Positions 6,191 through 45,839 are shown, counted from the first letter of the stretch. The stretch: 64,000 nucleotides of DNA from Eggerthellaceae bacterium (GCA_963602685.1 CAVCJG010000001.1:122683-186682); one strand, 5' to 3'. Notes: generated by a model not told the origin, from the sequence alone. Numbers and translations are program-made.

Positions 6191-6218
6191 AAAAAACACG
6201 CATTCGCGTGTTTTTTTT
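6191..6218 (+). terminator. rho-independent terminator after iscU
   Basis: Stem acacgc/gcgtgt with loop attc, followed by T8. Confidence 0.8.
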
Positions 6219-6237
6219 ATTTTAAACCAACCGTAAT

Positions 6238-6338
6238 GCACACGCAGTGTGCCATCATGCACGCATCAGCGTGCCATCCTGCATGCGCAAGCATGCCATA
6301 ATGTCACCAAAGGTGACTATCATGCTGACGCAGTCAGC
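6238..6338. repeat. array A of 5 tandem short GC-rich hairpins with CATCAT-like linkers
   Basis: The units start at 6238, 6259, 6281, 6303 and 6324. Each has a perfect 6-bp stem and a 3-4 nt loop. The linkers are CATCAT, CATCCT, CATAAT, TATCAT and CAATTT. Confidence 0.85.
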
Positions 6339-6423
6339 CAATTTGTCCACATAGGAATGATATGAAAGCACCCAAAAAATCCTGCGTCAAGCCCAAATTG
6401 TGACGGAATGTATGCAAAAACGC

Positions 6424-6452
6424 TTGACGTTTTTTTTTTTTTTCACTAGAAT
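6424..6452 (+). promoter_or_regulatory. promoter of giant surface protein gene A with a T14 tract in the spacer
   Basis: TTGACG (6424-6429), a 17-nt spacer made of T14 (6430-6443) plus cac, then TAGAAT (6447-6452). The flanks are conserved with locus B. Confidence 0.6.
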
Positions 6453-6584
6453 TAAGTTATAAAGATATCCACAAAAACTTAAAAAATAAATATTTATAAT
6501 ATTTAACAAACCTAAAACAATCAAATTTTGTCGAAAAACATTAGGTAATTTTGTCGAAAATGAGTAGAATATATAAAGGGAAAA

Positions 6585-9500
6585 ATGATAAAGACAAAGG
6601 CAAACGTAATTAAAATTCTTTTTATCGTTTTATTGTCGCTGTTGATGATGACAGGCGGCATAGTCTTTTTATGCAGTGAAGTCTCAACTCCGCCATCTCA
6701 AATGGAAGAACAAGTCGACGAAGTTAAAGCTGCAACCAACAACAACTATATTAGATGGACATCTTATGGTGCAAATGGACAAATTGGTTCTAATTTTGGT
6801 GGCTATGTATGGTCGGGATATGCAGGAGCTCAAAATTATAGAGGTGGTTTTGGAAAGACTGCTACTCAATCTACCGGCACTGATAGTAGTTCACTTACAA
6901 GAATTGCGGGGCAGTCGAATAGAGGTATCGTATTTAACACAGCGGTCACCAATTACAAAACAGGCCTCAGAGCTGGAGTATTAAGAATTTACTCCGATGG
7001 GAATCTATATGCTGCGGTTAGCTTGGATAGCTTAAGTGGAACAAGTGCTGAACGTGGAAGCATAAATTATAAAAACGATATATATTGGGATGTTTATTTA
7101 TATTATACCATCGCCTATACGGTAACTTGGAGTTATTGGCCTACAGAATATGGAAGTTTGCTTCATTACGATAAAAACTCACTAGTATATAGATATGATA
7201 CATCATCAGGTAGTGGCCAATGGTGGTGGACTGTTGATGGCGAGACTCAGCATGGAAGTCCATTGCTTCCATCGCGAACGGGTTATGCTTTTTCGGGACT
7301 GCAGACATCAAGTGGGCAAAAAATTATCAACTCTTCTATGGGCTGGGCAGGCTATTGGAATGCCAGCACAGCATATTGGGCACAATTATACGATAGTTGG
7401 ACACCATATACATATGAAGTCACTGCAAATGCAAATGGTGGTTCAATTCCTTCAACATCAGGTTGGAGTGGAACAGGTTCAACAGCAACAAAAACTGTTA
7501 CTTTTGATTCAACGTATGGCACACTTCCAACTCCAACCAGGACAGGTTATACATTTGGTGGCTGGTATACATCTTCAACTGGCGGGACAAAAATTGAGTC
7601 GAGCACAACGGTAAAAACAGCCAGTGATCATACAATTTATGCACATTGGACTGTAAATAATTATAACCTTAAAGTAGATCCAGCATCAGGTTCGTATAAC
7701 AATTCAACAGGTCTTACTTCAATTACACAAAATTACGGAACATCTTATACATACTTAACTCCAACAAAAACAGGATATAACTTTGACGGATGGCACACAG
7801 GCCAAAATTATTTGAGTTCGGCAAAAACATTTGACGGCTCATCTACATATGTTGCAGTCGGTCGTTCGCCTATGTATACAAGTGGCATTTCGGTTGCCGT
7901 CAGGGCAACTATGGACAGCTGGAGCGATTTTAAGACAAGTAATATGCGGCTAGTCTCCTGCACGGAAAGCGGTGGCTGGAACTTTGAGCCAAACGGCGAA
8001 TATGTCCAGTTTGCGTGTTATGACAGCGGTGTGGGATACAAATCCGCTAAAGCAAGCATAAAATGGTCCGATTTAGCGACGGGATATCACACTTTCACAG
8101 GAACTTTTGATGGTGAATATGCAAGAGTTTATATCGATGGTAAACTATATGGAACTTCAGCAAAATTCACATCTGGTAAAATTGGCTATCACGCGTCAAA
8201 CGGAATATTTATTGGTGCGGAAGCGGGCTCAAATGCGACAACTCCTGCGGGAAATTACTTTAAAGGAACTATTGACTATGTAGCAATTTCAAACAGTGGC
8301 ACAGTGTCAAAGCCAACATCGTTTACTTTCCCAGCTTACAACTCGGCATCAACAGCGCAATGGACAGCAAAAACATTTACTTTGACATTTGATGGCAATG
8401 GTGGCGGAACACCTAGCCCAACATCTAAAACTATCACATATGACAGCACTTATGGCACATTAGCGTCGGTTTCACGAACAGGTTACACCTTTAGTGGCTG
8501 GTGGACGGCTGCATCGGGTGGATCGCAGATAACGGAAAGCACAAAAGTGACCGTTACTGCCAACCAAACCGTCTATGCTCACTGGACAGTAAACAACTAT
8601 AATTTAACTCTTGCGCCAAACAGCGGATATTATGAATCGAGCAATGCTAATCGAACATATTCGGGGGCGTATGGTTCGACATCGTATTTTGGAGCGCCAC
8701 TCCGAACAGGTTATACGTTTGAAGGTTACACGCTTAGTGGGGCGGGCACACTTTCCGAACGCAAAGCGTCATCAGGATTTTCTTCAGCGACATTAAAAAG
8801 CGACGCCAACGGCGCGTATTACAATTATACTTTCTCAGGAACTCGACCAAGCAGTGACAGTTGGCCAAGCATACAGTATCCGGCGTATTCGTTTACCGCG
8901 GGGAAGACGTATGTGTTAAGCTTGAAAATAAGAGTCAATTCAACAACTGACGGCTTTTCAATTCGTCACGCGTCAATCTCAAACGACTGGGTTTGCCCAA
9001 TGCGCGGCTTTAGTAGTTCAACAAGCGGCTGGGTTGATGTAACGCTGGAACAAACGATCGGCGAAAATTACACGCGTTCAGGCACGTCTTATACATCGTC
9101 GCCACGACTTGAAATCTATATGAATTCAACCAAGGCAACAGGGTCGAACGGAACAACTTATAAAGTAGACTTTGATATTAGAAATATAGTTGTATATGAA
9201 AAAATATCAGGTCAAACCGCTTTTTCATCAATCTCTTACACTTACGGTGCAGACGCCGGAACAATAACAGCCAACTGGCAAGTTAAAAATTACAGCGTAA
9301 GCATCGATCCAAATGGCGGAACATACAGCGGAAGCACGGCAGCAAAAAGCGTAAGCGGAAACTACGGAACTACAACAACAATTTCAGATCCTACTAGAAC
9401 TGGCTACACCTTTGCTGGTTGGATTGCAACAAAAACAGATCTCAGCACAACATGGGCGCAAATTCTCTATCACGATACGGTTTATGGCACAAGTCTGTTT

Positions 9501-11882
9501 GCGTCCAGCGACGATTTAGCGTCAAAGGTTGTCAACACAACAACTAAAAACAGCCAATTTGCAACACTCGCAAAACTTAATTTGACAAGTTATGAGTTCT
9601 TGCTTCAATATCATCATACTTTGCAAACCGGAAGCTCAATGTATGCGAGAGAATACAACCGCTGGAAGCAAACATCAAATCCAGCAACGACTTCTGAATC
9701 CGTGAGCGGATATCAGGCGGTTTCAATTTCATGGAATACAAATACAAATTCATCGGCATTCCAAGGAATTGCTAAATCAAATTATTCTGGCACATTCATT
9801 GATGGAACAATCGGACATTCAAATTGGTTCTATGCGTTGGGCGCATCTGAAGCATGGAACGGGGGAATCCCAGGACCAAGCAGCGCCGAAACAAACATTG
9901 TAACCTTGTATCTTGCAACTGACAGCTCGCTGTCAAACTTTAAACCAACAGCAACATTCAAAGATGCGGATGCCTTAGGCTCGGACAACAAATATTACTT
10001 TAAAGACGAATCAGTAACTCTTAAAGCGCTTTGGATTGTAAACAGCTACACACTTACCGCAAAGGCAAATTCAGGATCAATCAAAGCAACGACAGGTTGG
10101 ACTGGCACTGGCACAACTGCAACAAAATCGGTGACATATAATACTGCATACGGAACTTTGCCAACAGTAGAAAGAACAGGATATGGATTTGCTGGTTGGT
10201 ATACAGCAGCAACAGGTGGAACAAAGGTTGATGCCAACACAAAAATAGGGGCAGCAAACGCAACTATTTACGCTCATTGGAGCATAAATTCATACACGCT
10301 TTATGCAAATTGCAATGGCGGATCAGCCCCAAGCACGCTTCCAACAGGATGGACAGCAAATGGAACGATGCCACAACGCTCAGTCAATTACAACGATACG
10401 TATGGAACACTTCCAGAGCCAACAAGACAAGGATATATCTTCGCCGGTTGGTGGACACAAGCAAGTGGCGGAAGTGAAGTGTATAATGGTACAAGAATGG
10501 GTGCGGCAGACGCTACAATCTATGCTCATTGGGTAGAAAGCTGGGTTAAATATATGTCAAGTGACAATCCTGTAATAGATCAAGCGGATGGTTATTACAA
10601 AATCGATTCAGCTGAAAGACTTGCACGTCTTGCATACCTTGTAAATTACAACATTGACAACGGCAAATGGGCAAGTTATAAATACAAACAAACCGCAGAT
10701 ATTGACCTTTCAGCACACTATTGGCAACCTATTGGATTGGAGACATATCCATTTTGTGGGACATTTGATGGCACCACATTTGATATTCACAACATGAAGA
10801 CATATTGCGAATCGGAATATTACTATTACTATAATACATATTTAGCTCAAGGTTTATTTGGAGTAGGAAGATCTATAAAAGTCTTGAATGTAAATATATA
10901 TGACGTTAATGTAAAAGGCAATGGAGCAGGTATTGTAGCTAAATGGGACAAAAATACAAGCGATAACAAAATTACAAATTGCCGAGTAACTGGTAAAATA
11001 AATGGTGATAACACAGGAGGTATCCTGGGAGATTCATATGGTGATGGAGTAATATCTAAATGCGAAAATTATGCAGACATTTATTCTGAAGACAGCACTT
11101 CTGGTGGAATCGTAGCTAGTAATTATTCACAAAATAGTTTTATAGTGTCGGAATGCGTAAATTATGGTGAAATCCATGCGTCAGGTGATGCAACAGGCGG
11201 TGGAATAATCGGAATTTGTGATGTCGGTACTGTAGAAAATTGTGTAAATTATGGTGACGTCGGAGATTATGGTGATACAGGTGGTATTGTAGGATTTGCA
11301 ATAAAAAATGTAACCATTAGAAATTGTATAAATAACGCAGATGTCATTGGCGCTTATGAGGTCGGTGGTATTCTTGGTGGAGCGAACAACAGTGTTTCTA
11401 TTAGCAATTGTATAAATATCGGAAGCTTAACAAATGAACAAGGATCGGTCGGCGGCATAGTTGGTGAAAACTATGGCGGCCAAGTTTCAATCGAGTCTTG
11501 TTTTGCTGATTGCCAAGTTGTGATCGGGGAAAAAGTTGGTGCGATTTTAGGTTCAACAGATACTTCTGATGTAACTATTACATATTGTGGCGCTAGAATA
11601 ACTATTCTTACGACAATAGCAAATGTGGGGGCATTCTACAATGCTGATAGTGGAGTGACTGTGACGTGCAATGATTCTTATTCACTTGTCAATAACAATG
11701 GAACAAAAATCAACCGCATCACTGCAACAAGCAGCGGAATGGATGGTAAGTTTGGAATGGTTTCATCAATTCATGATGGATTGCCAGTTCCACTTGGAAT
11801 CTACCATGTAAGCCAATATGGAACAACAAAAGGCATTGCTTCTACCTTAAAGGGAAGCAAATACGGCTGCACAACCGCTTAA
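6585..11882 (+). CDS. giant surface protein A (1765 aa): N-terminal membrane anchor, Listeria-Bacteroides (InlB B-type) repeats, LamG-like module, C-terminal GLUG repeats
   Basis: The N-terminal hydrophobic segment is ILFIVLLSLLMMTGGIVFLC. Repeats of the form TRTGYTFxGWYTxxxGGTKxxxxTxxxxxxxxIYAHW recur many times. The LamG-like region runs FDGSSTYVAV..YFKGTIDYVAISN. GG(I/L)(V/L/I)G motifs recur in the last ~300 aa. Confidence 0.9.
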   Translation: MIKTKANVIKILFIVLLSLLMMTGGIVFLCSEVSTPPSQMEEQVDEVKAATNNNYIRWTSYGANGQIGSNFGGYVWSGYAGAQNYRGGFGKTATQSTGTDSSSLTRIAGQSNRGIVFNTAVTNYKTGLRAGVLRIYSDGNLYAAVSLDSLSGTSAERGSINYKNDIYWDVYLYYTIAYTVTWSYWPTEYGSLLHYDKNSLVYRYDTSSGSGQWWWTVDGETQHGSPLLPSRTGYAFSGLQTSSGQKIINSSMGWAGYWNASTAYWAQLYDSWTPYTYEVTANANGGSIPSTSGWSGTGSTATKTVTFDSTYGTLPTPTRTGYTFGGWYTSSTGGTKIESSTTVKTASDHTIYAHWTVNNYNLKVDPASGSYNNSTGLTSITQNYGTSYTYLTPTKTGYNFDGWHTGQNYLSSAKTFDGSSTYVAVGRSPMYTSGISVAVRATMDSWSDFKTSNMRLVSCTESGGWNFEPNGEYVQFACYDSGVGYKSAKASIKWSDLATGYHTFTGTFDGEYARVYIDGKLYGTSAKFTSGKIGYHASNGIFIGAEAGSNATTPAGNYFKGTIDYVAISNSGTVSKPTSFTFPAYNSASTAQWTAKTFTLTFDGNGGGTPSPTSKTITYDSTYGTLASVSRTGYTFSGWWTAASGGSQITESTKVTVTANQTVYAHWTVNNYNLTLAPNSGYYESSNANRTYSGAYGSTSYFGAPLRTGYTFEGYTLSGAGTLSERKASSGFSSATLKSDANGAYYNYTFSGTRPSSDSWPSIQYPAYSFTAGKTYVLSLKIRVNSTTDGFSIRHASISNDWVCPMRGFSSSTSGWVDVTLEQTIGENYTRSGTSYTSSPRLEIYMNSTKATGSNGTTYKVDFDIRNIVVYEKISGQTAFSSISYTYGADAGTITANWQVKNYSVSIDPNGGTYSGSTAAKSVSGNYGTTTTISDPTRTGYTFAGWIATKTDLSTTWAQILYHDTVYGTSLFASSDDLASKVVNTTTKNSQFATLAKLNLTSYEFLLQYHHTLQTGSSMYAREYNRWKQTSNPATTSESVSGYQAVSISWNTNTNSSAFQGIAKSNYSGTFIDGTIGHSNWFYALGASEAWNGGIPGPSSAETNIVTLYLATDSSLSNFKPTATFKDADALGSDNKYYFKDESVTLKALWIVNSYTLTAKANSGSIKATTGWTGTGTTATKSVTYNTAYGTLPTVERTGYGFAGWYTAATGGTKVDANTKIGAANATIYAHWSINSYTLYANCNGGSAPSTLPTGWTANGTMPQRSVNYNDTYGTLPEPTRQGYIFAGWWTQASGGSEVYNGTRMGAADATIYAHWVESWVKYMSSDNPVIDQADGYYKIDSAERLARLAYLVNYNIDNGKWASYKYKQTADIDLSAHYWQPIGLETYPFCGTFDGTTFDIHNMKTYCESEYYYYYNTYLAQGLFGVGRSIKVLNVNIYDVNVKGNGAGIVAKWDKNTSDNKITNCRVTGKINGDNTGGILGDSYGDGVISKCENYADIYSEDSTSGGIVASNYSQNSFIVSECVNYGEIHASGDATGGGIIGICDVGTVENCVNYGDVGDYGDTGGIVGFAIKNVTIRNCINNADVIGAYEVGGILGGANNSVSISNCINIGSLTNEQGSVGGIVGENYGGQVSIESCFADCQVVIGEKVGAILGSTDTSDVTITYCGARITILTTIANVGAFYNADSGVTVTCNDSYSLVNNNGTKINRITATSSGMDGKFGMVSSIHDGLPVPLGIYHVSQYGTTKGIASTLKGSKYGCTTA
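7829..8300 (+). other. LamG / concanavalin-A-like lectin module inside protein A (absent from protein B)
   Basis: The pattern FDGSSTYVAVG..MRLVSCTESGGW..YHTFTGTFDGEYARVYIDGKLYG..IFIGAEAG..YFKGTIDYVAISN is typical of Laminin_G_3-type domains. Confidence 0.55.
8571..10808 (+). repeat. long paralogous segment shared with 42541..44780 (direct orientation)
   Basis: About 745 codons align colinearly with protein B, mostly identical residues by eye (HWTVNNY..SERKASSGF..QVKNYSVSIDPNGGTY..YKYKQTADIDLSAHYWQPIG..HNMKTYC). Confidence 0.9.
10850..11600 (+). repeat. GLUG-type repeat region of protein A
   Basis: Motifs such as GAGIVA, TGGILGD, SGGIVAS, GGGIIGI, TGGIVGF, VGGILGG and VGGIVGE recur roughly every 20-25 aa. 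Confidence 0.6.
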
Positions 11883-31353: not shown

Positions 31354-31382
31354 TTGTCTGCAAAAAAATTAGATGGTATAAT
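31354..31382 (+). promoter_or_regulatory. promoter with extended -10 placed 7 nt before the ATG (leaderless candidate)
   Basis: TTGTCT (31354-31359), a 17-nt spacer, TGgTATAAT (31374-31382), then aataaac and the ATG at 31390. Confidence 0.5.
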
Positions 31383-31389
31383 AATAAAC

Positions 31390-34300
31390 ATGAAAAAGAA
31401 ATTTTTTACAATATTTTGTGCCACTTTGGCTTTGCTTTTCGTTTCTCTTTTGCCATGCGGAGCAAAGATGTCTGCGTCTGCATTGACGGAAAACGAAAAT
31501 ACTTTTTACAGCGAGAAAAACGCGCCAATGTTTTATGGCACAACCGAAATTACAATAGACAAAGATGTCGTTTCAACTTTCGACCTTTTAGACGGACGAT
31601 TTAGAATACTTGCCAAAGACTTTGAAGATGGCGACCTTACACCAAACATTGTTTGCACCTTTAATGATGTCGATCCAACCACCGCGGGAGAATATCGCGT
31701 GGATTATGAAGTCAAGGATTCTCATCAAAACGTTTCAAAAATTTCAGTGCCTGTTCATGTTCTTGACAAAAGTGAAGGCGAGTGCAAAATCACGCGAAGA
31801 GTCTATGCGATTCCTTCGCTTAGCAATTTAAGTCTTGTTGGCACCGAAAGATGCAACAATGGGGACAGCCAAATTTTAGGCATTTATCTTCCAGTGGGAA
31901 GCAAGGCTCAAGTGAAAATTTTAAGCCAAGACAGCCCAAATTTAAAAGTTACATATTTTGCAAACACCAACGCTCAAAAGACGTCGTCGACAATAAAAGT
32001 TGCGACAACCAGCGAGCAATATATTCAAAACACAAAAGATACAACCGGCTATGACAGCGTTCCAATTTTGACTTCGCCAAGACTTAGCGAAGAAAAAATC
32101 GATCAAACATATGACATAGAATTGAGTTTTGATTCAACTGTAAAAGCGCTTGATTATTTTCACTATAAAGACAGTGAACAAGATTTTAAAGACAAGTGGA
32201 AAACAACCGAAAATACATATGGCGTCGTTGACGGCGAAGCAATTATGGCGGTCGTTCCGTTTGCGGACGTTGATAAATTAAGCGGATATGTTGCTCCAAG
32301 ATTTGACGCTCCATTCGAATCGCTTGACACTTTTTTTGAATATTATTTAGAAGTAGTAAATCGCATGGATGCGATGCTTGGGCTGTCGCTTAATCCACAA
32401 GATCCGATTGACCAAAATTACAGAACAAAATATTTGGCAGTGGCAGATGCGTCAGCGGGCAGCGCTGCATATTATAACGGAAGTTTAATTGCGGTTGGCT
32501 CAGCATCCATATCGCCACTCTTCCAATATGGCTGGGGCACCTTGCACGAAATTGGACACGGCTATCAAGGCTATTTGGGAAGGGGCGGAACTGACGAAAA
32601 AACCAGCATCTTCTTAAATGAAACCGGAAACAACATTTTGGCACACTACATCCAAATGGATCCAATTTATCACAAAAGCGATCGCTATATAGGCAACCTA
32701 GCAAATTGCGAAGCCAACATAAACAACACACGCAAGAATGCGGTTGCAAACGGCAAAACCATTTTCAATAACAACAGCGGCGTATACACCAACACGCAAG
32801 AAAAATTGTATTGCATTGTCAATCTTCTAGACAACTTTGAAGGCGAACAAACATACGGAAAATTGTTCCAATATTATCGCCGCATTGTCAAAGAAGTGGG
32901 CAAAGACCAATTTACTGTGCCTGAAATTTACGCAAAGTTTTTTGCAGAAGAATACAACGCAAACATTATTCCATATCTCACAGCATGGACGATGTCACTT
33001 TCTGACGATGTTAAAGGCGAAATATTAAACTCAAACGCAGTGGCTTATTCCATCACAAGCGACACTTTGTCAGATGAGAGTTTTGAAAAGGTTTTCGTTG
33101 GCGAAAACTTGAAGTTAAAGTATGGTTTAATAAGCGATGAAGTTCTTGCCAAATACAACATTAAAAGCGAAGTTAAATTAAACATACAAATTGATGATTT
33201 CAACCTTGTTAAAGGCAAAAATGTTGCATTAACTCAAAATGGAAATATAATCAAAGTTCAAAAAATCAGCGCCGACACTGTCATCTTTAACAACCTTGAC
33301 ACCGGCACATATGAAATTAAATTGCCAATAGTTTATGGCTATGACAGTTTGCTTTGCATGGCAACACTGCAAGAAGGCGATAATGACATTTCATACGCTT
33401 ATTCTAAAATGGTGTATGAAGACCTGTCAAAGCCACTTACAGTGATTAAAATCCTTGGCATACACGGCACGCTTGGCTATTCGCTGACTTTCAATGACGG
33501 CTATAAGTCGGGCAGCATCGTCTATGGCGCGGCGGACTTAGGAAACCAAGGCAAGCAGGAATGGATCGACAATCCGGACAACGTTTATGTTTCGGTTACA
33601 ATAAAAGATCCAAACGGCGAAGTCAGCCAATCAGTAGAAGTTAAAGGCGTTGAATATTTTTGGGGCAAAACACCCGAAAACGCTACGCCAAGTTTTGAAG
33701 TAGGATCAAAGATTTGCATCTTCACGCACAGACCGACACTCGTGGGCGTCTATCTAAAAGAAAACGACCAAAAGATTGATGCTTATTCAGTAAGTCAAAC
33801 CGAGCAAAACATCGAATATGAAATAACAGAAAACGGGCTTAAACTTTTAAACAAAGCCGATTTTGATGAAAAAGAAGTGTTGTTTAAAGCCGCCAACGAC
33901 GAGATTAAAAGAGTGCTAAACAATGCTCAAAACACTTTAACAGAATCGGAGCTTGCAAACAAAAGATTAAAAGTTGCCACTAAAAATAAAGTGCTTAGCA
34001 TGTATTCATATTTGCCTAGTGATGACCAAGAAACATATGCAAATTTCATATCGCAAATCACAGGCGGAGGCAAACCAACCATCACTGTTAAAACAAGCGA
34101 CACGGAAATCAAAGTGGGCGAGCAACTGGACTTGTATTCACTTATCGAAATCACTGACAACGAAGATTTTGTGATTCAATCAAATTCAACAAATGTAAAA
34201 ATAGAAAGCAACTTTGATGCAAACAAAACAGGTGAGTATGTGGTAAAGTTTACTGTGACCGACAGTGACGGAAATACATCTGCAAAAGAAATTATTGTAA

Positions 34301-38820: not shown

Positions 38821-38998
38821 AATTTTTCTCCTTAAAATTAAAGTGTGAAAAAATTATGTATTTATTCTAAAAAATTAACACAAATCTCTCGCGTGCCTCC
38901 ATGCGCATATTTGAAATAATAAAATTGAAATACCACCGCAACGCACTCATATAAAAAACCAACCTTTATGCACACGCATATATAAAATCAACCGCAAA

Positions 38999-39124
38999 GC
39001 ACACGCAGTGTGCTATCATGCACGCGCTAGCGTGCCATCATACTGGCGAAGCCAGCCATCATGCGCAACTAGTTGCGCCATCATGTCACTGCAAGTGACC
39101 CTGTCAGTCGGACTGCCGACTGAC
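38999..39124. repeat. array B of 6 tandem short GC-rich hairpins with CATCAT linkers
   Basis: The units start at 38999, 39020, 39042, 39063, 39085 and 39103. The stems are 5-9 bp. The linkers are TATCAT, then CATCAT three times, then CCT. The last unit has a 9-bp stem followed by TTTT. Confidence 0.85.
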
Positions 39125-39204
39125 TTTTCCACATTGTCCAAATAAAAAAACAAAAAATTATTTCACGCATCGCCAAAATTGTGACGGATTGTATGCAAAA
39201 TTGC

Positions 39205-39233
39205 TTGACGTTTTTTTTTTTTACAGGTAAAAT
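39205..39233 (+). promoter_or_regulatory. promoter of giant surface protein gene B with a T12 tract in the spacer
   Basis: TTGACG (39205-39210), a 17-nt spacer made of T12 (39211-39222) plus acagg, then TAAAAT (39228-39233). Confidence 0.6.
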
Positions 39234-39404
39234 TATTATAGATATTGTCCACAGAAACAAAAAATTCAAGAAAAAAACATCGAATTTATCAATAATTATT
39301 TTTTTGTCGAAAAACGTTAGGTAGTTTTAATAAAATCGGTTAAAATAAATTATGGAATAAATATATAATTAAATATTATTGTTAATATTTTCAAGGAGGA
39401 AGGT

Positions 39405-42400
39405 TTGATTAAACGTAAGCTCAGTTACAGCAAATTAATGTATCTGTTGGTAGCGCTTAGCCTTTCTTTTTTTATTTTCGGAATCGTCTTTCTTTCTTGC
39501 TTTAATGTAAATGACAACTCGCAAGACTCGTCCGAAGCGGCAATCACGTATTGGACAGATTATGCTGCTGATTCTTTTGCAGGCGGAAACGGAACAGAGT
39601 CTAGCCCTTATCTCATTGAAACGGCAGCGCAGCTTGCACGCTTAGCGAAATTAATAAACAATAAAGACACAACTGCAGCTTGGAATTCAAAATATTATAA
39701 ACAAACTGCGAATATTGATTTAAGTACTGGCGGACATATATGGTATCCGATAGGGAATAGTTCATTTGATGAAGAAGCCGAAAATAATCACACTGTCTTA
39801 AAAAATGCTACGGTTCCTTTTAAGGGTACATATGATGGTGATGGGCATATTGTTAAAGGAATTAAAAATTCTTTACTAAGTTCAACAGGCGGCTTGTTTG
39901 GATCGGGAAGAGGCTGTACAATCAAAAACGTTGGAGTGTTAAACCCAGAAAGAATATATGGCATTTATGGTGCGGGGAGCATTTTAGGGGCTGCACTTTC
40001 GTTTAACGATAGCGGCACGACACTTAATGATGCTTGTAATGTCCTAAATTGTTTCAGTGCTGGTGGGACATATATTGGCGGAGCAAAGTACGGCGCAGGC
40101 GGAATTATAGGCTATGCGTATATTGGTGGTATAGAAAATTGTTATAATGCTAGTTCGGGTTTAGTTTCTTCATCAGCTACTGGTGGATTAATCGGATATG
40201 GAGTTTTTGGGGTGGCTTCATATTCTTATAATATTGGTGGTATGTCAACGAGCTCAAATTATCCTCAAGGCGGGATATTTGGTGCTAATGGTTTATCATC
40301 GGCAACCAGCGTTTTTAGTGTTGGAAAAAGAAACACTTCAAAGTATGCTGGTGTAAGTGGGAATTGTTTAGAGTCAGGAGTAACACCTTCATGTTCTAAA
40401 GTTTTCCATACAGCCATCGTCGATTATAATCAATGGAATATGTCTGCAGATCCGCCTGCTATTACTTCAGGTGGCACTCTGTCTGGAGTTTCGCGTCCAT
40501 CAAACTTGGAAACACAGGCAAAAGACTGGAGTTGGTTTAGCACAAATATAGATGCAGGGAATAATAACTATAAATTAAACAGCACAATTATTGAAAATGA
40601 CGGATATCCTGTTCTTTCTGTATTTTGCAAAAATGTAACAGCAAATGCAAATGGCGGCTCAGTGGTAAGTGGCAATGGTTGGCCAGCAGGTTCTACATCG
40701 ACGAAGACAATGGTCAATGGCTATCTTAATATGCCAACAGCAACAAGAACCGGATACACTTTTGATGGTTGGTATACGGCAGCAAGTGGTGGAACTAAAG
40801 TTGAACCTACTTGGGCAGACATGAAAGAAAGCATACCTTCAACAATTTACGCCCATTGGTCAAGAAATAGCTATTCAATAAGCACTGACCTTCGTGGTGG
40901 AACTACATACAAAAATATTATAACACCTTCAACAATTTGCGACAGCTGGACGGCTTCGACAAGTTATTCCAACTATATGACACTTCAATATGACGCTCCA
41001 AGTGGCGTTTATACAATGACAAACACAGCAGCAGGCAATGACCCATATGCAACAGGAAATCAAACCGTTTATTTGTCAACTGGCAAAACTTATGTTATGC
41101 ACGCGATTTGCACTGATAATTCAGGAGTTTCTGTAACTGGCAATCCTTTGCAAGTCTTTTATGGAATAAGTCTGGGCTACAGCGAAGCAAACAGCAAGCG
41201 GTTTGGTGAAACGACGACGCAAGAATTTACGGTTTCCACGTCTGGAACTTACAATTTCCGGTTTGACAACGACTTTTCTTATGCAAGCGGTGGAGTGATG
41301 AAAGTGCGAGAGTTCTGGGTTGCAGAAAAATCGCAATCAACGGCGACTCAATCTTATTCCGTTCCATATCAAGGATATTATCCTGCGGCGAATCCGACTA
41401 AAGAAGGTTACACATTTGCAGGCTGGAAAGAACTTTTAAACACAACAACGAATGTTACATTAAGTACAAGCACTTCAAATTACAATTATTTGCCAATGTT
41501 GACGGGTGTTGTTCCGGGTACGAAATATGAAATAACAATCGGAACGGCAAAACTAACATCTGGCTCTGCAAGCCAATTTACAACATTAATTTATGACTTT
41601 ACGACAAGCAAAACTTTAGCAAGTGCGACAAATAATTTTGGATCAAATGTTTCTTATACACTTACTTGTCCAAGTTCGGCAACCGCGTCAAACGATATTC
41701 GAATAATTATTTATGCAGGCATTAGTGGCGCGACGGCAAATAATGCGGCATCATATTCAAACATTCAAATCTTCTCTAGTAATGTTTTAGGTTCATATTC
41801 TGCTTTACATAACACAAGCACAGCAAGCAAAACTTATTATGCGCAATGGCTTCCTGTTGCGAGCAAAGTTACATTTAACCCAAATGGGGGGACAATAACT
41901 TCTGGCAATGCAACAGATTATGTGACATATGGCGCGACATATGCGGGCAAGACAAACATCTATCGCCCTATATTTGGTTCGCTTGCGCTTACAAATTCAG
42001 GAAATATATTCAGTGTCAATGTCGACAATTCGTCTGGAACAAGTGTCAAGTATGCAAATTTCATGTCTTCGTATGACGGCGCAACGGTGCAACCAAACAC
42101 AACTTACACGGTTGTAATTAAGGTGACCGCTTATAGTGGGAATCAATTAAAGATTAATTTTACTTCACCTTATGATATCGGCTCAAGTGGGTTAGGCGAT
42201 ACGGCAACGTCAACTTGTTGGTTTGATATTTCGAACACGGGCGTTTACTACAAGACATTTACAACAAAAGCAAACCTTAATGGTTCATATTTTAATTTTA
42301 GATCCTACATTCCTGTTGATGCTGGCAAAAAGGCGATTGCAACCTTCCAAGTTGCGGTTTTCGCCGGCTCGTTCAACTCAAATCCTACAAATTCAACCTT

Positions 42401-45400
42401 TGAGTATCATGAAGCAGCAAGCGGGAATGCTCTTCCTGTCGCTACAAGAACGGGTTATACATTTGACGGCTGGTTTACAGCTGAAACAGGCGGAACAAAA
42501 GTTTCAGCCGACACGATAGTTACAAACGCAAGTGATCATGTGTTGTATGCTCATTGGACGGTGAACAACTATGATTTGATTCTGTCACCTAATGACGGAT
42601 ATTATGAATCAAGCAGCTCAGACAGAACTTATACTGCTGCTTATGGCACGACTTCATACTTTGGAATGCCACTTCGAACGGGTTATACGTTTGAAGGCTA
42701 CACGCATACTGGTTCGGGCACGCTTTCCGAACGAAAAGCATCATCGGGCTTTACTTCTGCCACATTAAAGAGCGATTCAAACGGCGCCTATTACAATTAT
42801 ACTTTCTCAGGAACGCGACCAAGCAGTGACAGCTGGCCAAGCATCCAATATCCAACCTATTCGTTTACAGCAGGGAAGACGTATGTATTAAACTTTAAAA
42901 TTAGAGTAAATTCAACAACTGATAGTTTCGCGGTTCGTCACTCGTCAATCGCAAACGACTGGGTATGCCCAATGCGCGGCTTTAGTGGCGCGACAAATGG
43001 TTGGGTTGATGTAACTCTGGAGCAAACTATCGGCGAAAACTACACGCGTTCAGGCTCGTCTTATACATCATCTCCACGACTTGAAATCTACATGAATTCA
43101 ACCAAGGCAACAGGGTCAAACGGCGACTCATACAAGGTTGATTTTGATATTAAAAACATTGTTATATATGAAAAAGGAACAGGGAAAACCGCATTTACGT
43201 CTATTGTTTACACTTATGGTGCTGGAGCAGGAACGCTGACAGCGAAATGGCAAGTTAAAAATTATAGCGTGAGCATCGATCCAAATGGTGGAACATATGG
43301 CGGAAGCACGACTGCAACAAGCGTAAGCGGAAACTATGGAACTACAACAACAATTTCAGATCCAACAAGAACTGGCTATACCTTTGCTGGTTGGATTGCA
43401 ACAAAAACCGATCTCAGTACGACATGGGCGCAAATTCTCTATCATGATGCCGTTTATGGCTCAAGTCTGTTTACGTCAGGCGATAACTTGGCGTCAAATG
43501 TTGTCAATACAACGACTAAAAACAGTCAATTTGCAACACTTGCAAAACTTAATTTGACAAGTTATGAGTTCTTACTTCAATATCATCACACATTGCAAGC
43601 GGGAAGTTCAATGTATGCGCGAGAATACAACCGCTGGAAGCAAACATCAAATCCAGCAACGACAACAGAAGCAGTAAGTGGATATGAAGTGGTTTCGATT
43701 TCGTGGAATACAAATACGAATTCGACCGCATTCCAAGGGATTGCGAGATCAAACAGTGGGGCCACCTTTATTGACGGAACAATCGGGCACTCAGACTGGT
43801 TCTATGCTCTCGGATCATATAATGAATGGAACGGGGGAATTCCAGGACCAAGCAGCGCCGAAACAAACATTGTAACTTTGTATCTTGCAACAGACAGCTC
43901 GCTTTCAAACTTTAAACCAACGGCAACATTCAAAGATGCTGACGCTTTAGGCTCAAACAATACATATTACTTTAAAGACGAATCAGTAACTCTTAAAGCA
44001 CTTTGGATTGCCAACATTTACAAACTTACAGCAAACGCCAATGGCGGATCAATTCCGGAAACCACAGGCTGGAGCGGAACAGGCGCAACAGCAACAAAGT
44101 CAGTCGTTTATGACACTGCATACGGCACACTTCCAGTGCCAACAAGAACAGGCTATGGCTTTGCTGGTTGGTATAGATCGGCATCAGGCGGAATGGGAGT
44201 CAGCGCAACCACAAAAATGGGAGCGGCAAACGTAACAATTTACGCTAATTGGGAATTAAATTCATACACTCTTACGGCTGACTGCAATGGCGGAACAGCG
44301 CCAAGCACGCTTCCAACAGGTTGGACGGCAAATGGAACTGCACCATATATAACACTTAATTATGATGCTGATTATGGAATTCTTCCAGTGCCAACAAGAC
44401 AAGGATATATATTTGCTGGCTGGTGGACGGCAGCTAGCGCAGGCAGTGAAGTAAACTACAAGACAAAAATTGGAGCGGGCGATACAAAAATCTACGCGCA
44501 TTGGGTTGAAAGCTGGGTTAAATATATGTCAGACGACAACCCAGTATTGGATCAAGCGGACGGCTATTACAAAATCGACTCAGCTGCAAAACTTGCACGT
44601 CTTGCATATCTTGTAAATAGTAACGCGGACAACGGCAAATGGGCAAGTTATAAATACAAGCAAACCGCCGACATCGACCTTTCAGCACACTACTGGCAGC
44701 CAATCGGTAACGCAACATATCAATTTAAAGGGATTTTCGACGGCACAACGTTCGACTTCCACAACATGAAAACATATTGCGGAGTAAACGGATATGCTTC
44801 ATATGATTATTATGGGCTATTTGGTTATACAAAATCAGCTGAAATTCGAAATGTAAACAACTATGATATTGACATGAAATGCAGAGAATACTCGGGCGGT
44901 ATAGTGGGTAAATCCAGAGCAGGCACTATTGAAAATTGTAAAGTGACTGGGAAAATATCGGGCATATCTAATTTTACAGCGGGCATTACTGGCGAAAGTT
45001 CTTCAACAATTAAAGATTGCGTGAACTATGCTTCGGTCACTTCAGACTACTATGCTGTTGCAGGAATCGTCGGTGATGGTAGTGGGACAATTGAAAATTG
45101 CATCAATTATGGAAATATTACAGCATACGAATTTGCGGGCGGAATTGTTGGAAGAGCGTTTGGAGGAAATATTGAAAATTGTGTAAATGAAGGCAATATT
45201 ACTTGTACTTATCATATGGTTGGTGGTATCGCAGGCGAAATTTCATATGGGAACATTGTTTCGTGTAGCAATTTAGGCATTGTAACAGGTTTAGTTTACG
45301 TTGGCGGAATAGTAGGACAAAGTTCTTCTTCAGATGATATAACAATTTCTCAATGTTTAAACACCGGGGATATTGTTATTACGGATACAGACAGGACTAC

Positions 45401-45839
45401 ATATGCTGGTGGAATATTGGGAAATGCTTACACGGCTACAACGATAGAATCGTGTTTTGCTGATTTCAAAATTACTTCAAATAAAACAATTACGTTTGGA
45501 TCAATTTTGGGCTATGCTGAATACAACGTTACGATAAAATATTGTGGCGCTAGGATTACTACAACATCGAATCTGCCTGCGACAACAGTTTATGGGAATA
45601 AGAAAACATCGGCAACAGTTACGGCAAACGATTGGTATTCATTGTTAACTATTAGAGGAAATAAAATAAATCGTATTGCCACGACAAGCAGCGGAATGGA
45701 TGGTAAGTTTGGAATGATCTCATCAATTCATGATGGATTGCCAGTTCCACTTGGAATCTACCATGTAAGCCAATATGGAACAACCACAGGCATTGCTTCA
45801 ACCTTAACGGGAAGTAAATACGGCTGCACAACCGCGTAA
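39405..45839 (+). CDS. giant surface protein B (2144 aa): N-terminal anchor, GLUG module at both ends, B-type repeats, beta-rich unknown modules
   Basis: TTG start 4 nt after AAGGAGGAAGG. The N-terminus MIKRKL..LVALSLSFFIFGIVFLSC is homologous to protein A. The architecture is mosaic, with a central ~745 aa and the last ~60 aa nearly identical to A. Confidence 0.9.
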   Translation: MIKRKLSYSKLMYLLVALSLSFFIFGIVFLSCFNVNDNSQDSSEAAITYWTDYAADSFAGGNGTESSPYLIETAAQLARLAKLINNKDTTAAWNSKYYKQTANIDLSTGGHIWYPIGNSSFDEEAENNHTVLKNATVPFKGTYDGDGHIVKGIKNSLLSSTGGLFGSGRGCTIKNVGVLNPERIYGIYGAGSILGAALSFNDSGTTLNDACNVLNCFSAGGTYIGGAKYGAGGIIGYAYIGGIENCYNASSGLVSSSATGGLIGYGVFGVASYSYNIGGMSTSSNYPQGGIFGANGLSSATSVFSVGKRNTSKYAGVSGNCLESGVTPSCSKVFHTAIVDYNQWNMSADPPAITSGGTLSGVSRPSNLETQAKDWSWFSTNIDAGNNNYKLNSTIIENDGYPVLSVFCKNVTANANGGSVVSGNGWPAGSTSTKTMVNGYLNMPTATRTGYTFDGWYTAASGGTKVEPTWADMKESIPSTIYAHWSRNSYSISTDLRGGTTYKNIITPSTICDSWTASTSYSNYMTLQYDAPSGVYTMTNTAAGNDPYATGNQTVYLSTGKTYVMHAICTDNSGVSVTGNPLQVFYGISLGYSEANSKRFGETTTQEFTVSTSGTYNFRFDNDFSYASGGVMKVREFWVAEKSQSTATQSYSVPYQGYYPAANPTKEGYTFAGWKELLNTTTNVTLSTSTSNYNYLPMLTGVVPGTKYEITIGTAKLTSGSASQFTTLIYDFTTSKTLASATNNFGSNVSYTLTCPSSATASNDIRIIIYAGISGATANNAASYSNIQIFSSNVLGSYSALHNTSTASKTYYAQWLPVASKVTFNPNGGTITSGNATDYVTYGATYAGKTNIYRPIFGSLALTNSGNIFSVNVDNSSGTSVKYANFMSSYDGATVQPNTTYTVVIKVTAYSGNQLKINFTSPYDIGSSGLGDTATSTCWFDISNTGVYYKTFTTKANLNGSYFNFRSYIPVDAGKKAIATFQVAVFAGSFNSNPTNSTFEYHEAASGNALPVATRTGYTFDGWFTAETGGTKVSADTIVTNASDHVLYAHWTVNNYDLILSPNDGYYESSSSDRTYTAAYGTTSYFGMPLRTGYTFEGYTHTGSGTLSERKASSGFTSATLKSDSNGAYYNYTFSGTRPSSDSWPSIQYPTYSFTAGKTYVLNFKIRVNSTTDSFAVRHSSIANDWVCPMRGFSGATNGWVDVTLEQTIGENYTRSGSSYTSSPRLEIYMNSTKATGSNGDSYKVDFDIKNIVIYEKGTGKTAFTSIVYTYGAGAGTLTAKWQVKNYSVSIDPNGGTYGGSTTATSVSGNYGTTTTISDPTRTGYTFAGWIATKTDLSTTWAQILYHDAVYGSSLFTSGDNLASNVVNTTTKNSQFATLAKLNLTSYEFLLQYHHTLQAGSSMYAREYNRWKQTSNPATTTEAVSGYEVVSISWNTNTNSTAFQGIARSNSGATFIDGTIGHSDWFYALGSYNEWNGGIPGPSSAETNIVTLYLATDSSLSNFKPTATFKDADALGSNNTYYFKDESVTLKALWIANIYKLTANANGGSIPETTGWSGTGATATKSVVYDTAYGTLPVPTRTGYGFAGWYRSASGGMGVSATTKMGAANVTIYANWELNSYTLTADCNGGTAPSTLPTGWTANGTAPYITLNYDADYGILPVPTRQGYIFAGWWTAASAGSEVNYKTKIGAGDTKIYAHWVESWVKYMSDDNPVLDQADGYYKIDSAAKLARLAYLVNSNADNGKWASYKYKQTADIDLSAHYWQPIGNATYQFKGIFDGTTFDFHNMKTYCGVNGYASYDYYGLFGYTKSAEIRNVNNYDIDMKCREYSGGIVGKSRAGTIENCKVTGKISGISNFTAGITGESSSTIKDCVNYASVTSDYYAVAGIVGDGSGTIENCINYGNITAYEFAGGIVGRAFGGNIENCVNEGNITCTYHMVGGIAGEISYGNIVSCSNLGIVTGLVYVGGIVGQSSSSDDITISQCLNTGDIVITDTDRTTYAGGILGNAYTATTIESCFADFKITSNKTITFGSILGYAEYNVTIKYCGARITTTSNLPATTVYGNKKTSATVTANDWYSLLTIRGNKINRIATTSSGMDGKFGMISSIHDGLPVPLGIYHVSQYGTTTGIASTLTGSKYGCTTA
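39890..40300 (+). repeat. N-terminal GLUG-type repeat region of protein B
   Basis: TGGLFGS, GAGSILGA, GAGGIIGY, TGGLIGY and QGGIFGA motifs follow a YLIETAAQLARLAKLIN..YYKQTANIDL..FKGTYDGDGHIV lead-in. That lead-in parallels the C-terminal module. Confidence 0.6.
42541..44780 (+). repeat. long paralogous segment shared with 8571..10808
   Basis: See the feature at 8571. The two segments are colinear, in direct orientation and about 34 kb apart. Confidence 0.9.
44815..45560 (+). repeat. C-terminal GLUG-type repeat region of protein B
   Basis: SGGIVGK, VAGIVGD, AGGIVGR, VGGIAGE, VGGIVGQ and AGGILGN motifs. The sequence diverges from the equivalent region of A. Confidence 0.6.

What the first reader, a model, noticed from the sequence alone, without database searches (positions are those of the whole stretch)
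6238..6338. Tandem array of five 21-22-nt-phased mini-hairpins with different stems but a conserved CATCAT linker (locus A)
Read directly from the sequence, the units are:
- gcacac-gca-gtgtgc CATCAT
- gcacgc-atca-gcgtgc CATCCT
- gcatgc-gcaa-gcatgc CATAAT
- gtcacc-aaa-ggtgac TATCAT
- gctgac-gca-gtcagc CAATTT

Every unit is a perfect 6-bp GC-rich stem with a 3-4 nt loop. The stems all differ, while the linker and the phasing (21, 22, 22, 21 nt, about two DNA helical turns) are kept. This is the opposite of CRISPR or REP logic, where the repeat is constant and the spacer varies. It suggests that structure rather than sequence is selected.

The array lies between the iscU terminator and the promoter of the giant adhesin gene; the -35 box is 86 nt downstream. 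I do not recognise this as any described element class. Possible roles include a transcriptional insulator, a cruciform or ssDNA recognition platform, or a multi-hairpin RNA.
Basis: seen in the sequence. Interest (0 to 1): 0.75.

Follow-up and report, generated by a model that had tools for sequence, protein, structure and literature searches.

The report
Hypervariable mini-hairpin array before adhesin genes
Just upstream of the promoters of giant surface-protein genes in a tiny-genome gut bacterium lies a real array of 0-10 small DNA hairpins with different stems but the same CATCAT joint; it changes from strain to strain, matches no described repeat family, and its function could only be inferred.

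Summary
Window 6238-6338 holds five perfect 6-bp hairpins with 3-4-nt loops, phased 21/22/22/21 nt and joined by CATCAT-like linkers. Chance does not produce this: no run of even two phased hairpins appeared in 200 simulated windows.

It is not a dispersed element. It is one module of a roughly 400-nt control region shared by paralogous giant surface-protein genes. A second array lies at 38998-39124, in the same orientation and at the same distance from the promoter.

The organism is close to Clostridiales bacterium UBA11517 (family UBA1242, reduced genomes). Strains 96-99.9% identical in nifS-iscU carry 0, 3, 5, 6, 7 or 9 units at the same site, and a third paralog carries 10.

Stems covary: 96.5% of cells are paired, against 58.6% in shuffles. 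Linkers and the G..A loop ends are conserved, while inner loop bases vary freely. This points to folding of the + strand.

The promoter downstream has a poly-T spacer of variable length (13-18 nt).

My best reading is a structure-constrained hairpin-unit minisatellite in a contingency-type control region, turned over by hairpin-assisted slippage and paralog recombination. Its effect on expression is inferred, not shown. No Rfam, REP/BIME, CRISPR, iteron or attC membership holds.

The parts
6191..6216 (+). Intrinsic terminator of iscU (AAAAAACACGC-attc-GCGTGTTTTTT plus a T run), directly 5' of the element
   Evidence: conserved in all iscU-linked loci
6224..6237 (+). Conserved 'leader' AAACCAACCGTAAT, the 5' border of the array. 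It is also present in alleles that have no array.
6238..6338 (+). Array A: five hairpin units at 6238-6258, 6259-6280, 6281-6302, 6303-6323 and 6324-6344, linker included
6343..6351 (+). TTGTCCACA, a DnaA-box-like motif (8 of 9 matches to TTATCCACA) directly 3' of the array
   Evidence: a perfect TTATCCACA is seen in L001 at this position and in L004 at the second, promoter-proximal box
6398..6423 (+). Conserved module TTGTGACGGAATGTATGCAAAAACGC just 5' of the -35 box
6424..6452 (+). Promoter P1, TTGACG-17-TAGAAT. The spacer is filled by a T14 tract (6430-6443) whose length varies between strains.
6466..6473 (+). Second TATCCACA box just downstream of the P1 -10 hexamer
6527..6565 (+). P2 module TTTGTCGAAAAACATTAGGTAATTTTGTCGAAAATGAG with two TGTCGAA boxes (6529, 6552). 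It is the only upstream module kept in every locus.
6585..11882 (+). Giant surface protein A (1765 aa, Listeria-Bacteroides/InlB B-repeats)
38944..38997 (+). Locus B: tandemly duplicated leader plus half of unit a (29-nt period)
38998..39124 (+). Array B: six units (GCACAC-gca, GCACGC-gcta, CTGGC-gaa, GCGCAA-ctag, GTCACT-gca, GTCAGTCGG-actg) with CATCAT or TATCAT linkers
   Evidence: an identical copy is in L189
39125..39133 (+). TTTTCCACA box 3' of array B
39205..39233 (+). Promoter P1 of locus B, TTGACG-17-TAAAAT, with a T12 tract in the spacer
39405..45839 (+). Giant surface protein B (2144 aa). Its C-terminal 1200 aa are 68% identical to protein A.

Best explanation
The array is a lineage-specific, hypervariable minisatellite. 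Its 21-22-bp units are each a small hairpin-forming palindrome followed by the direct repeat CATCAT. It is one module of the upstream control region of a paralogous family of giant surface-protein genes in a reduced-genome gut bacterium close to UBA11517 (family UBA1242).

Shown:
- The array always lies in the same orientation. In the window's two loci it ends 82-86 nt before the -35 box of promoter P1.
- The number and mix of units change between near-identical strains (0-10 units).
- Units are positional homologues that keep pairing through changes on both sides.
- Stems, linkers and the G..A loop ends are conserved while inner loop bases vary freely.
- P1 itself carries a poly-T spacer of variable length.

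Inferred:
- The hairpins form on the + strand as single-stranded DNA. By GC skew this strand is the lagging-strand template. G-N-A triloops closed by C-G are the classic extra-stable DNA mini-hairpins.
- A hairpin flanked by 6-nt direct repeats is the textbook substrate for hairpin-assisted replication slippage, so each unit can be lost or gained in one step of about two helical turns.
- Recombination between the paralogous control regions shuffles units.
- Different stems keep every hairpin local, so the array stays in register.
- The array plus the poly-T promoter would then make a contingency-type region that varies expression of the surface proteins. Possible routes are array length, multivalent binding of a structure-specific protein, or absorption of negative supercoils upstream of a twist-sensitive promoter. 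Which of these applies is not known.
For: Anatomy and chance.

Same module at two paralogous loci in the window: (77% mean column identity over about 400 nt).

The unit model hits only the arrays.

Intraspecies variation at the iscU site: loci 96.3-99.9% identical in nifS-iscU carry 0 units (L005, L177, L178, L182), 3 (L003, L183, L186), 5 (window), 6 (L180), 7 (L184, L185) or 9 (L179). L175, a third paralog in the L003 genome, has about 10 units.

Signs of whole-unit turnover: a chimeric unit GTTGGC-gca-AGCGAC, a truncated 10-nt unit, and a locus-B-type tail at an iscU-linked locus.

Covariation: 96.5% paired against 58.6% in shuffles, 50 cells changed on both sides, slid controls 16-38%.

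Constraint pattern within unit types, as pairwise differences per site: stems 0.065, linkers 0.073, loop ends 0.025, inner loop 0.425.

Loops with G..A ends occur in about 27 of 41 perfect units.

The + strand is G-rich across the whole window.

The P1 spacer is 13-18 nt because of a T7-T15 tract.

Template switching can also maintain perfect stems (PMC8794818). Hairpin-plus-direct-repeat deletion on the lagging strand and the stability of d(C-GNA-G) hairpins are from my own knowledge of the literature.
Against: No expression, transcript-end or within-population data exist, so no phenotype of unit number is shown.

Unit number does not correlate with P1 spacer length in the 9 loci where both are seen.

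Nothing functional is known upstream of the array whose distance to P1 could matter. At locus A it is only a terminator.

28% of units carry a mismatch or are decayed, and whole clades lack the array, so it is dispensable.

Nearest-neighbour DNA energies do not distinguish the two strands: -29.6 against -30.0 kcal/mol.

Mismatch types give no strand signal.

The grouping of units into types used stem similarity, which biases the stem diversity figure downward.
Confidence: 0.4

Rival explanations
1. Multivalent platform for a structure-specific protein on single-stranded nucleic acid. A dedicated protein would recognise 'G-C-closed mini-hairpin plus 3' CATCAT' on extruded or single-stranded DNA (+ strand) or on a sense RNA. 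The array offers 3-10 orthogonal copies, like re-engineered non-repetitive MS2/PP7 cassettes. Valency would set the strength of regulation or nucleate a filament next to the TCCACA box.
For: The conservation pattern is what a shape-plus-short-sequence reader would impose. The outer G-C pair is nearly invariant (20 of 23), the second pair is Y-R, inner pairs vary freely with compensation, loop ends are G..A, and the linker is conserved. The orientation is fixed and the distance to the P1 -35 box is 82-86 nt at the window's two loci.
Against: There is no candidate protein. No recombinase, HUH enzyme or obvious regulator lies next to either locus. No solitary units exist elsewhere. Arrays decay or vanish in close relatives.
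Confidence: 0.2
2. Multi-hairpin RNA. The array would be transcribed in the sense direction, either by read-through of the upstream terminator or from an unrecognised promoter in the leader. It would act as an RNA, for example a 3'-exonuclease barrier, a protein sponge, or a Rho-loading or insulating leader.
For: The hairpins fold well as RNA. GCAA loops are GNRA tetraloops. At three loci the array directly follows a co-oriented terminator. The duplicated leader carries TATAAA-like boxes.
Against: No sigma-70-like promoter is found upstream at either locus, and the best promoter lies downstream of the array. At locus B the upstream gene is divergent. The upstream terminators are strong. Triloops predominate and GTTA, GCTA and GCCA are not GNRA loops. 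Wobble pairs are not favoured on the + strand: 2 G.T against 5 A.C or C.A. There is no Rfam match.
Confidence: 0.15
3. Double-stranded DNA binding array, iteron-like or LytTR/response-regulator-like. A protein would bind the conserved decamer RC-YATCAT-GY, repeated every two helical turns on one face of the helix, next to a DnaA-box-like site. The array would act as an upstream activating or silencing region of P1.
For: The period is 20-22 bp throughout. A conserved 8-10-bp core recurs. A TT(A/G/T)TCCACA box is adjacent. The position is upstream of a promoter.
Against: This does not explain why the 11-12 bp between cores stay palindromic through changes on both sides, nor why the loop ends are G..A. 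No rep or initiator gene is nearby and the GC skew shows no inflection, so it is not an origin. The decamer occurs nowhere else in 64 kb.
Confidence: 0.1
4. No function of its own. It would be a neutral minisatellite born by duplication of a terminator-like hairpin. Its stems would be kept perfect by template-switch 'quasipalindrome correction', and its linkers would be kept because only units with intact direct repeats can be copied by slippage.
For: Template switching can create and maintain perfect stems, including one-step compensatory changes (PMC8794818). The array is dispensable and often partly decayed. It sits in a region that is generally recombination-prone.
Against: Inner loop bases diverge 6-17 times faster than linkers, stems and loop ends within homologous units. 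Neither adjacent nor identical stems are produced, as simple slippage would predict. The same orientation and place are kept in at least three paralogous loci.
Confidence: 0.15

Closest known systems
REP/BIME arrays (palindromic units with conserved linker motifs, e.g. E. coli BIME-2)
   Same: Both are extragenic arrays of hairpin-forming palindromic units separated by short conserved linkers. Both often lie just after a terminator, and unit number varies between strains.
   Different: REPs are 20-40-nt imperfect palindromes with one genome-wide consensus. They occur in hundreds of dispersed copies, in alternating orientation, and are tied to a RAYT transposase. Here the units are 15-16 nt, all in direct orientation, with different stems. 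They are found only in one gene family's control region, and no RAYT is seen in the window.
Promoter-associated tandem-repeat contingency loci (H. influenzae hmw1A/hmw2A 7-bp repeats; M. gallisepticum vlhA GAA repeats; homopolymer tracts in promoter spacers)
   Same: Both are tandem repeats in the 5' control region of large adhesin or surface-protein genes. Copy number differs between strains. Here this is combined with a poly-T tract in the -35/-10 spacer.
   Different: Known cases use short, identical repeat units (1-7 bp) without secondary structure. Here the units are 21-22 bp and non-identical, constrained to fold, and lie upstream of the promoter. No expression effect has been shown.
Non-B DNA structures upstream of antigenic-variation expression sites (Neisseria pilE G-quadruplex; Borrelia vlsE inverted repeat)
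   Same: Both involve a DNA secondary structure, conserved as structure, directly upstream of a variable surface-protein gene that recombines with paralogues.
   Different: Those are a single G4 or one long inverted repeat, with a demonstrated role (pilE) in starting gene conversion. Here there is an array of mini-hairpins and no functional evidence.
Extra-stable DNA mini-hairpins d(C-GNA-G) and supercoil-extruded promoter hairpins of phage N4
   Same: Both have 5-7-bp stems and 3-nt G-N-A loops closed by C-G. This is the commonest unit form here.
   Different: N4 hairpins are single promoter elements read by a phage RNA polymerase with SSB. Here they form arrays upstream of a sigma-70-type promoter in a chromosome.
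Plasmid iterons
   Same: Both are direct repeats phased at about 22 bp, with a DnaA-box-like site and A+T-rich DNA alongside.
   Different: Iterons are conserved over their whole length, are not internal palindromes, and sit next to a rep gene at an origin. None of this holds here.

Membership tests
REP/BIME | One uniform palindromic consensus present in many dispersed copies in the genome | tested here: not met
   There are at least 10 different stem types. The unit model hits only the two arrays in 64 kb and only arrays in 144 kb of related loci.
REP/BIME | Units in alternating (inverted) orientation within clusters | tested here: not met
   All units are in direct orientation with the linker 3' of the hairpin.
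REP/BIME | Cognate RAYT (Y1 transposase) gene in the genome | not testable with these tools
   None is present among the window genes scanned. The rest of the genome was not available.
CRISPR | Constant repeat of 23-55 nt separated by variable spacers of similar length; cas genes | tested here: not met
   The constant part is 6-10 nt and the variable part is a self-complementary 11-12 nt. There are no cas genes.
Plasmid-type iterons / replication origin | Near-identical 17-22-bp direct repeats next to a rep gene; origin function | tested here: not met
   Only about 10 of 21-22 nt are conserved. No rep gene is present. The cumulative GC skew is monotonic across both loci.
Intrinsic terminators | GC-rich hairpin followed directly by a U/T run | tested here: not met
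   The terminator scan reports only the iscU terminator, not the units. Only the last hairpin of array B is followed by TTTT.
Integron attC sites | 57-141-nt imperfect hairpins with R/L boxes and extrahelical bases, flanking gene cassettes, with an intI integrase | tested here: not met
   The units are 15-16 nt, there are no cassettes between them and no integrase nearby.
Any Rfam 15 RNA family | Score at or above the family's gathering threshold | tested here: not met
   There is no hit at either array at gathering thresholds. In E-value mode only sub-threshold chance hits appear.
Tandem-repeat contingency locus (VNTR in a control region) | Tandem repeat in the promoter or 5' region of a surface-protein gene | tested here: met
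Tandem-repeat contingency locus (VNTR in a control region) | Copy number polymorphic among closely related strains | tested here: met
   0-9 units occur at the iscU site among loci 96.3-99.9% identical in the flanking genes.
Tandem-repeat contingency locus (VNTR in a control region) | Repeat number changes reversibly at high rate and alters expression | not testable with these tools
   This needs population sequencing and reporter or expression data.

The most novel reading that the evidence does not exclude
The array is a natural set of 'orthogonal' DNA mini-hairpins: different stems so that each folds only on itself, with constant G-C closure, G..A loop ends and a CATCAT tail. It would serve as a multivalent, structure-specific landing pad on the + strand. 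A dedicated protein or the replication/repair machinery would use it to trigger recombination or switching of giant adhesin genes in a partner-dependent, reduced-genome gut bacterium. Functionally this would be a counterpart of the pilE G-quadruplex or the vlsE inverted repeat, but built on a new principle.
Probability: 0.2. Interest if true: 0.85.

Novelty: new variant of a known kind. Interest (0 to 1): 0.6.

Why it matters
If the reading holds, this is a repeat whose logic is the reverse of the usual one. Structure, loop ends and joints are fixed while stem sequence is free. It sits in front of phase-variable promoters of the giant surface proteins that a partner-dependent bacterium with a genome under 1 Mb presumably uses to attach to other cells.

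It would give a concrete, testable case of short DNA hairpins acting in a bacterial chromosome. It would also add a new type of contingency locus, and a strain-typing marker for an uncultured gut lineage.

Practically, it explains why assemblies of these genomes break here. It also shows that covariation alone does not imply an RNA.

Tried and rejected
1. A genome-contig scan with TTGTGACGGANTGTATGCAAAA found 0 hits. The pattern was too strict: relatives read AATGTGACGG or TTGTAACGG.

2. A viral-contig scan with CATCAT-N14-15-CCATCAT-N14-15-CCATCAT gave 220 matches, none with hairpins. The 48-nt matches imply 21-nt periods, which I take to be coding repeats, though I did not check this. A linker-only pattern is therefore useless in large collections.

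3. A metagenome scan with the P1 module found one contig, an allele without an array.

4. Paralogs P0002 and P0004 of the window's own genome could not be retrieved.

5. Rfam in gathering and E-value modes gave nothing credible. BLAST against plasmids and phages gave nothing.

6. Mobile-element idea (MITE, ICE or att site): rejected. There are no dispersed copies, no recombinase, and the genes between A and B are housekeeping genes.

7. Coding idea: CAT CAT reads as His-His, but the 22-nt units break the frame and there is no start codon or ribosome-binding site.

8. CATG methylation idea: CATG is only mildly under-represented (0.75), so there is no signal.

9. Strand asymmetry from folding energies: none, with -29.6 against -30.0 kcal/mol. 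The parameter set apparently gives GNA triloops no extra stability.

10. A terminator-like pairing of GCGTCAAGC with the -35 region occurs only in A and L186, and is not conserved.

11. A sense promoter in the leader was not found by the scan. Similarities to sigma-K or sigma-E motifs were too weak to use.

12. A 21-nt imperfect inverted repeat brackets the whole locus-B control region. It was not pursued: the DNA is AT-rich, there is no recombinase, and it is absent at locus A.

Full report
**Observation**

It holds five perfect 6-bp, GC-rich stems with 3-4-nt loops. The units start at 6238, 6259, 6281, 6303 and 6324, giving periods of 21, 22, 22 and 21 nt. Each is followed by CATCAT, CATCCT, CATAAT, TATCAT or CAATTT. 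A mechanical hairpin scan finds the same five units. The minimum-free-energy fold is these five hairpins whether computed as RNA (z = -3.2) or as DNA (z = -4.7). The iscU terminator is at 6191-6216. The best sigma-70-like promoter is TTGACG-17-TAGAAT at 6424-6452, 86 nt after the array.

Chance is excluded. In 200 Markov-simulated 64-kb sequences there was never a run of even two such hairpins phased at 20-23 nt. In 1.9 Mb of loci fetched up to that point, nearly all from unrelated taxa, phased clusters appeared only in the window and in a close relative's locus, L003.

**The array is a module of a paralogous control region, not a free element**

A second array lies at 38998-39124. Both arrays sit upstream of giant surface-protein genes. 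These are 6585-11882 (1765 aa) and 39405-45839 (2144 aa). Both carry Listeria-Bacteroides/InlB B-repeats, and their C-terminal 1200 aa are 68% identical.

The roughly 400 nt upstream of the two genes align throughout, with 77% mean column identity. The modules, in order, are:
- a leader, AAACCAACCG..;
- the hairpin array;
- a TT(G/T)TCCACA box;
- the module TGTGACGGAWTGTATGCAAAA;
- promoter P1, with a poly-T tract filling its spacer;
- a second TCCACA box;
- a P2 module with two TGTCGAA boxes;
- the start codon.

A covariance model of the unit, run with filters off, finds only the ten units of the two arrays in the window. In 144 kb of related loci it finds only array units. The conserved octamer GCCATCAT occurs without mismatch nowhere else in the window. 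Genes around and between the loci are housekeeping genes. No recombinase, transposase or rep gene is present.

**Organism**

The window's nifS-iscU DNA is 97.2% identical to Clostridiales bacterium UBA11517. GTDB genus UBA11517 is Candidatus Caccovivens, family UBA1242, order Christensenellales (PMC8035907). That family has genomes below 1 Mb, an inferred partner-dependent lifestyle and, unexpectedly, sporulation genes (PMC12306168).

**Variation**

Contigs carrying the identical IscU protein, or giant-gene relatives, gave eleven arrays and several empty sites. At the iscU site the flanking nifS-iscU genes are 96.3-99.9% identical. The arrays there differ as follows:

| Units at the iscU site | Loci |
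|---|---|
| 0 | L005, L125, L174, L177, L178, and L182 (a deletion from the terminator T run into the P1 T run) |
| 3 | L003, L183, L186 |
| 5 | window |
| 6 | L180 |
| 7 | L184, L185 |
| 9 | L179 |

The window's nearest relative (L186, 98.9%) shares none of its five units. A third paralog in the L003 genome, L175, has about 10 units. The ortholog of locus B in another assembly has a decayed array (L004). Another ortholog has the TCCACA segment and P1 but no array (L001).

Units are positional homologues drawn from about ten stem types. Examples are GCACAC (always first), GCACGC, GCATGC, GCGCAA, GTCGCT/GTCACT/GTCACC, GCGCAC, GTTGGC and GTCGCC.

Three features show whole-unit deletion and exchange between paralogous regions:
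- a chimeric unit, GTTGGC-gca-AGCGAC;
- a truncated 10-nt unit;
- a locus-B-type tail at an iscU-linked locus.

Several contigs end within or just after this region. The genes downstream of the giant gene differ between strains: GDPD/lepA, rplM/rpsI, or 27.5 kb of housekeeping genes. The giant-gene loci are therefore also rearrangement breakpoints.

**Constraint**

Of 57 unit instances (43 distinct), 41 are perfect over at least 5 bp, 11 have one mismatch and 5 are decayed. Of the 57 scored linker hexamers, 29 are CATCAT and 13 are TATCAT; most of the others lie at array ends.

On 23 units, decayed ones included, the five outer pairs are 96.5% paired, against 58.6% in shuffles (0 of 500 shuffles reach it). 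Sliding the partner columns gives 16-38%. The three inner scored pairs show three or four standard pair types each. The outer G-C pair is almost invariant.

Within unit types, pairwise differences per site are 0.065 for stems, 0.073 for linkers, 0.025 for the first and last loop bases and 0.425 for inner loop bases. The stem figure is biased downward because units were grouped by stem similarity. The contrast between loop ends and inner loop bases is not affected by that bias.

Loops are mostly G-N-A or G-N-N-A on the + strand, in about 27 of 41 perfect units if GCA loops with a broken closing pair are counted. This marks the + strand as the strand whose folding matters.

From my own knowledge, C-GNA-G triloops and GTTA or GCAA loops with a sheared G.A pair are the classic extra-stable DNA mini-hairpins, whereas functional RNAs favour GNRA or UNCG tetraloops. 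Together with the position upstream of the only good promoter, and the lack of any upstream sense promoter, I favour single-stranded DNA over RNA, but not strongly. Mismatch types give no strand signal (2 G.T against 5 A.C or C.A on the + strand). Folding energies give none either.

**Mechanism (inferred)**

The + strand is G-rich over the whole window and carries most genes. It is therefore probably the leading-strand sequence, which makes the parental + strand the lagging-strand template.

A stable hairpin flanked by 6-nt direct repeats is the textbook substrate for hairpin-assisted slippage on the lagging-strand template. This would remove or add one unit of about 21 nt at a time, and it fits the observed whole-unit changes. 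Different stems prevent pairing between units and keep the array in register.

Perfect stems may be maintained by selection, by template-switch correction (PMC8794818), or by both. The conserved linkers and loop ends next to freely varying inner loop bases argue that at least part of the pattern is selected.

P1 has a T7-T15 tract that sets its spacer to 13-18 nt across strains. This is a classic slipped-strand phase-variation design. The array therefore sits in a contingency-type control region.

What unit number does is unknown. It shows no correlation with spacer length. Options are multivalent binding of a structure-specific protein, absorption of negative supercoils upstream of a twist-sensitive promoter, or initiation of recombination among the paralogs.

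**Comparison with known systems**

The closest known systems are:
- REP/BIME arrays, which have palindromic units plus linkers and variable number;
- promoter-associated tandem-repeat contingency loci, such as hmw and vlhA;
- the structure-forming DNA upstream of pilE and vlsE.

The membership tests for REP/BIME, CRISPR, iterons, attC, intrinsic terminators and Rfam families were run and not met, with one exception: the RAYT criterion for REP/BIME could not be tested with these tools. The descriptive criteria of a control-region VNTR are met, but its functional criterion cannot be tested here.

I rate the finding as a new variant of a known kind. It is real, non-random, structure-constrained and lineage-specific, and its function is unproven.

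Noticed in passing
window 6424-6452 and 39205-39233; L001, L003, L004, L175, L179, L180, L183, L184 and others: Promoter P1 of the giant genes has a poly-T tract filling the -35/-10 spacer. Tract length is 7-15 nt and spacer length 13-18 nt across near-identical strains (for example T14/17 in the window, T13/16 in L003, T15/18 in L183, T10/13 in L184). This looks like classical slipped-strand phase variation.
   Followed up: partly
window 6529-6535, 6552-6558 and 39305-39311: The promoter-proximal P2 module carries perfect TGTCGAA boxes (the Spo0A '0A box' sequence): two in locus A, 23 nt apart, and one in locus B. It is the only upstream module kept in every locus, including L176. The UBA1242 family is reported to keep sporulation genes (PMC12306168).
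   Followed up: no
window 6343-6351, 6466-6473, 39125-39133, 39245-39253; L001:2723: DnaA-box-like TT(A/G/T)TCCACA motifs bracket P1. One lies directly 3' of the array and one just after the -10 hexamer. A perfect TTATCCACA occurs in L001 and L004. There is no origin signature in the GC skew.
   Followed up: partly
window 38944-39007; L003:3629-3684; L186: The leader plus the 5' half of unit a (AACCAACCGCAA-GCACACGCA-TATATAAA) is itself tandemly duplicated with a 29-nt period, giving 2-3 leader copies before some arrays.
   Followed up: no
window 11883-39404 compared with L005, L177, L178: The giant-gene loci are chromosomal rearrangement breakpoints. Relatives have iscU -> one giant gene -> GDPD/lepA, or -> rplM/rpsI. 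The window instead has 27.5 kb of housekeeping genes (SRP RNA, ileS, a TraG-like ATPase and others) between giant genes A and B.
   Followed up: partly
L182:1905-2100: One strain has lost the leader, the array and the -35 box through a deletion joining the iscU-terminator T run to the P1 spacer T run (..GCGTGTTTTTTTTACTAGAAT..). It carries a different 1372-aa gene downstream.
   Followed up: no
window 38852-38872 and 39350-39370: A 21-nt imperfect inverted repeat (18 of 21) brackets the whole locus-B control region, with 477 nt between the arms. It could be chance in AT-rich DNA or an invertible segment. No recombinase is nearby.
   Followed up: no
window 6246-6264 and 6269-6286: For units a-b-c, the 3' arm of one unit is nearly complementary to the 5' arm of the next (GTGTGC-CATCAT-GCACGC). 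An alternative register with CATCAT as a hexaloop is therefore possible.
   Followed up: no
window 31354-34443: A further large surface protein (1029 aa; M60 enhancin-like peptidase, Ig-like and mucin-binding domains) lies between the two loci. It has no hairpin array or P1 module upstream.
   Followed up: no
window, whole: The palindromes GTAC (0.19 of expectation), AGCT (0.38), GGCC (0.44) and GATC (0.48) are strongly avoided, which suggests restriction-modification pressure.
   Followed up: no
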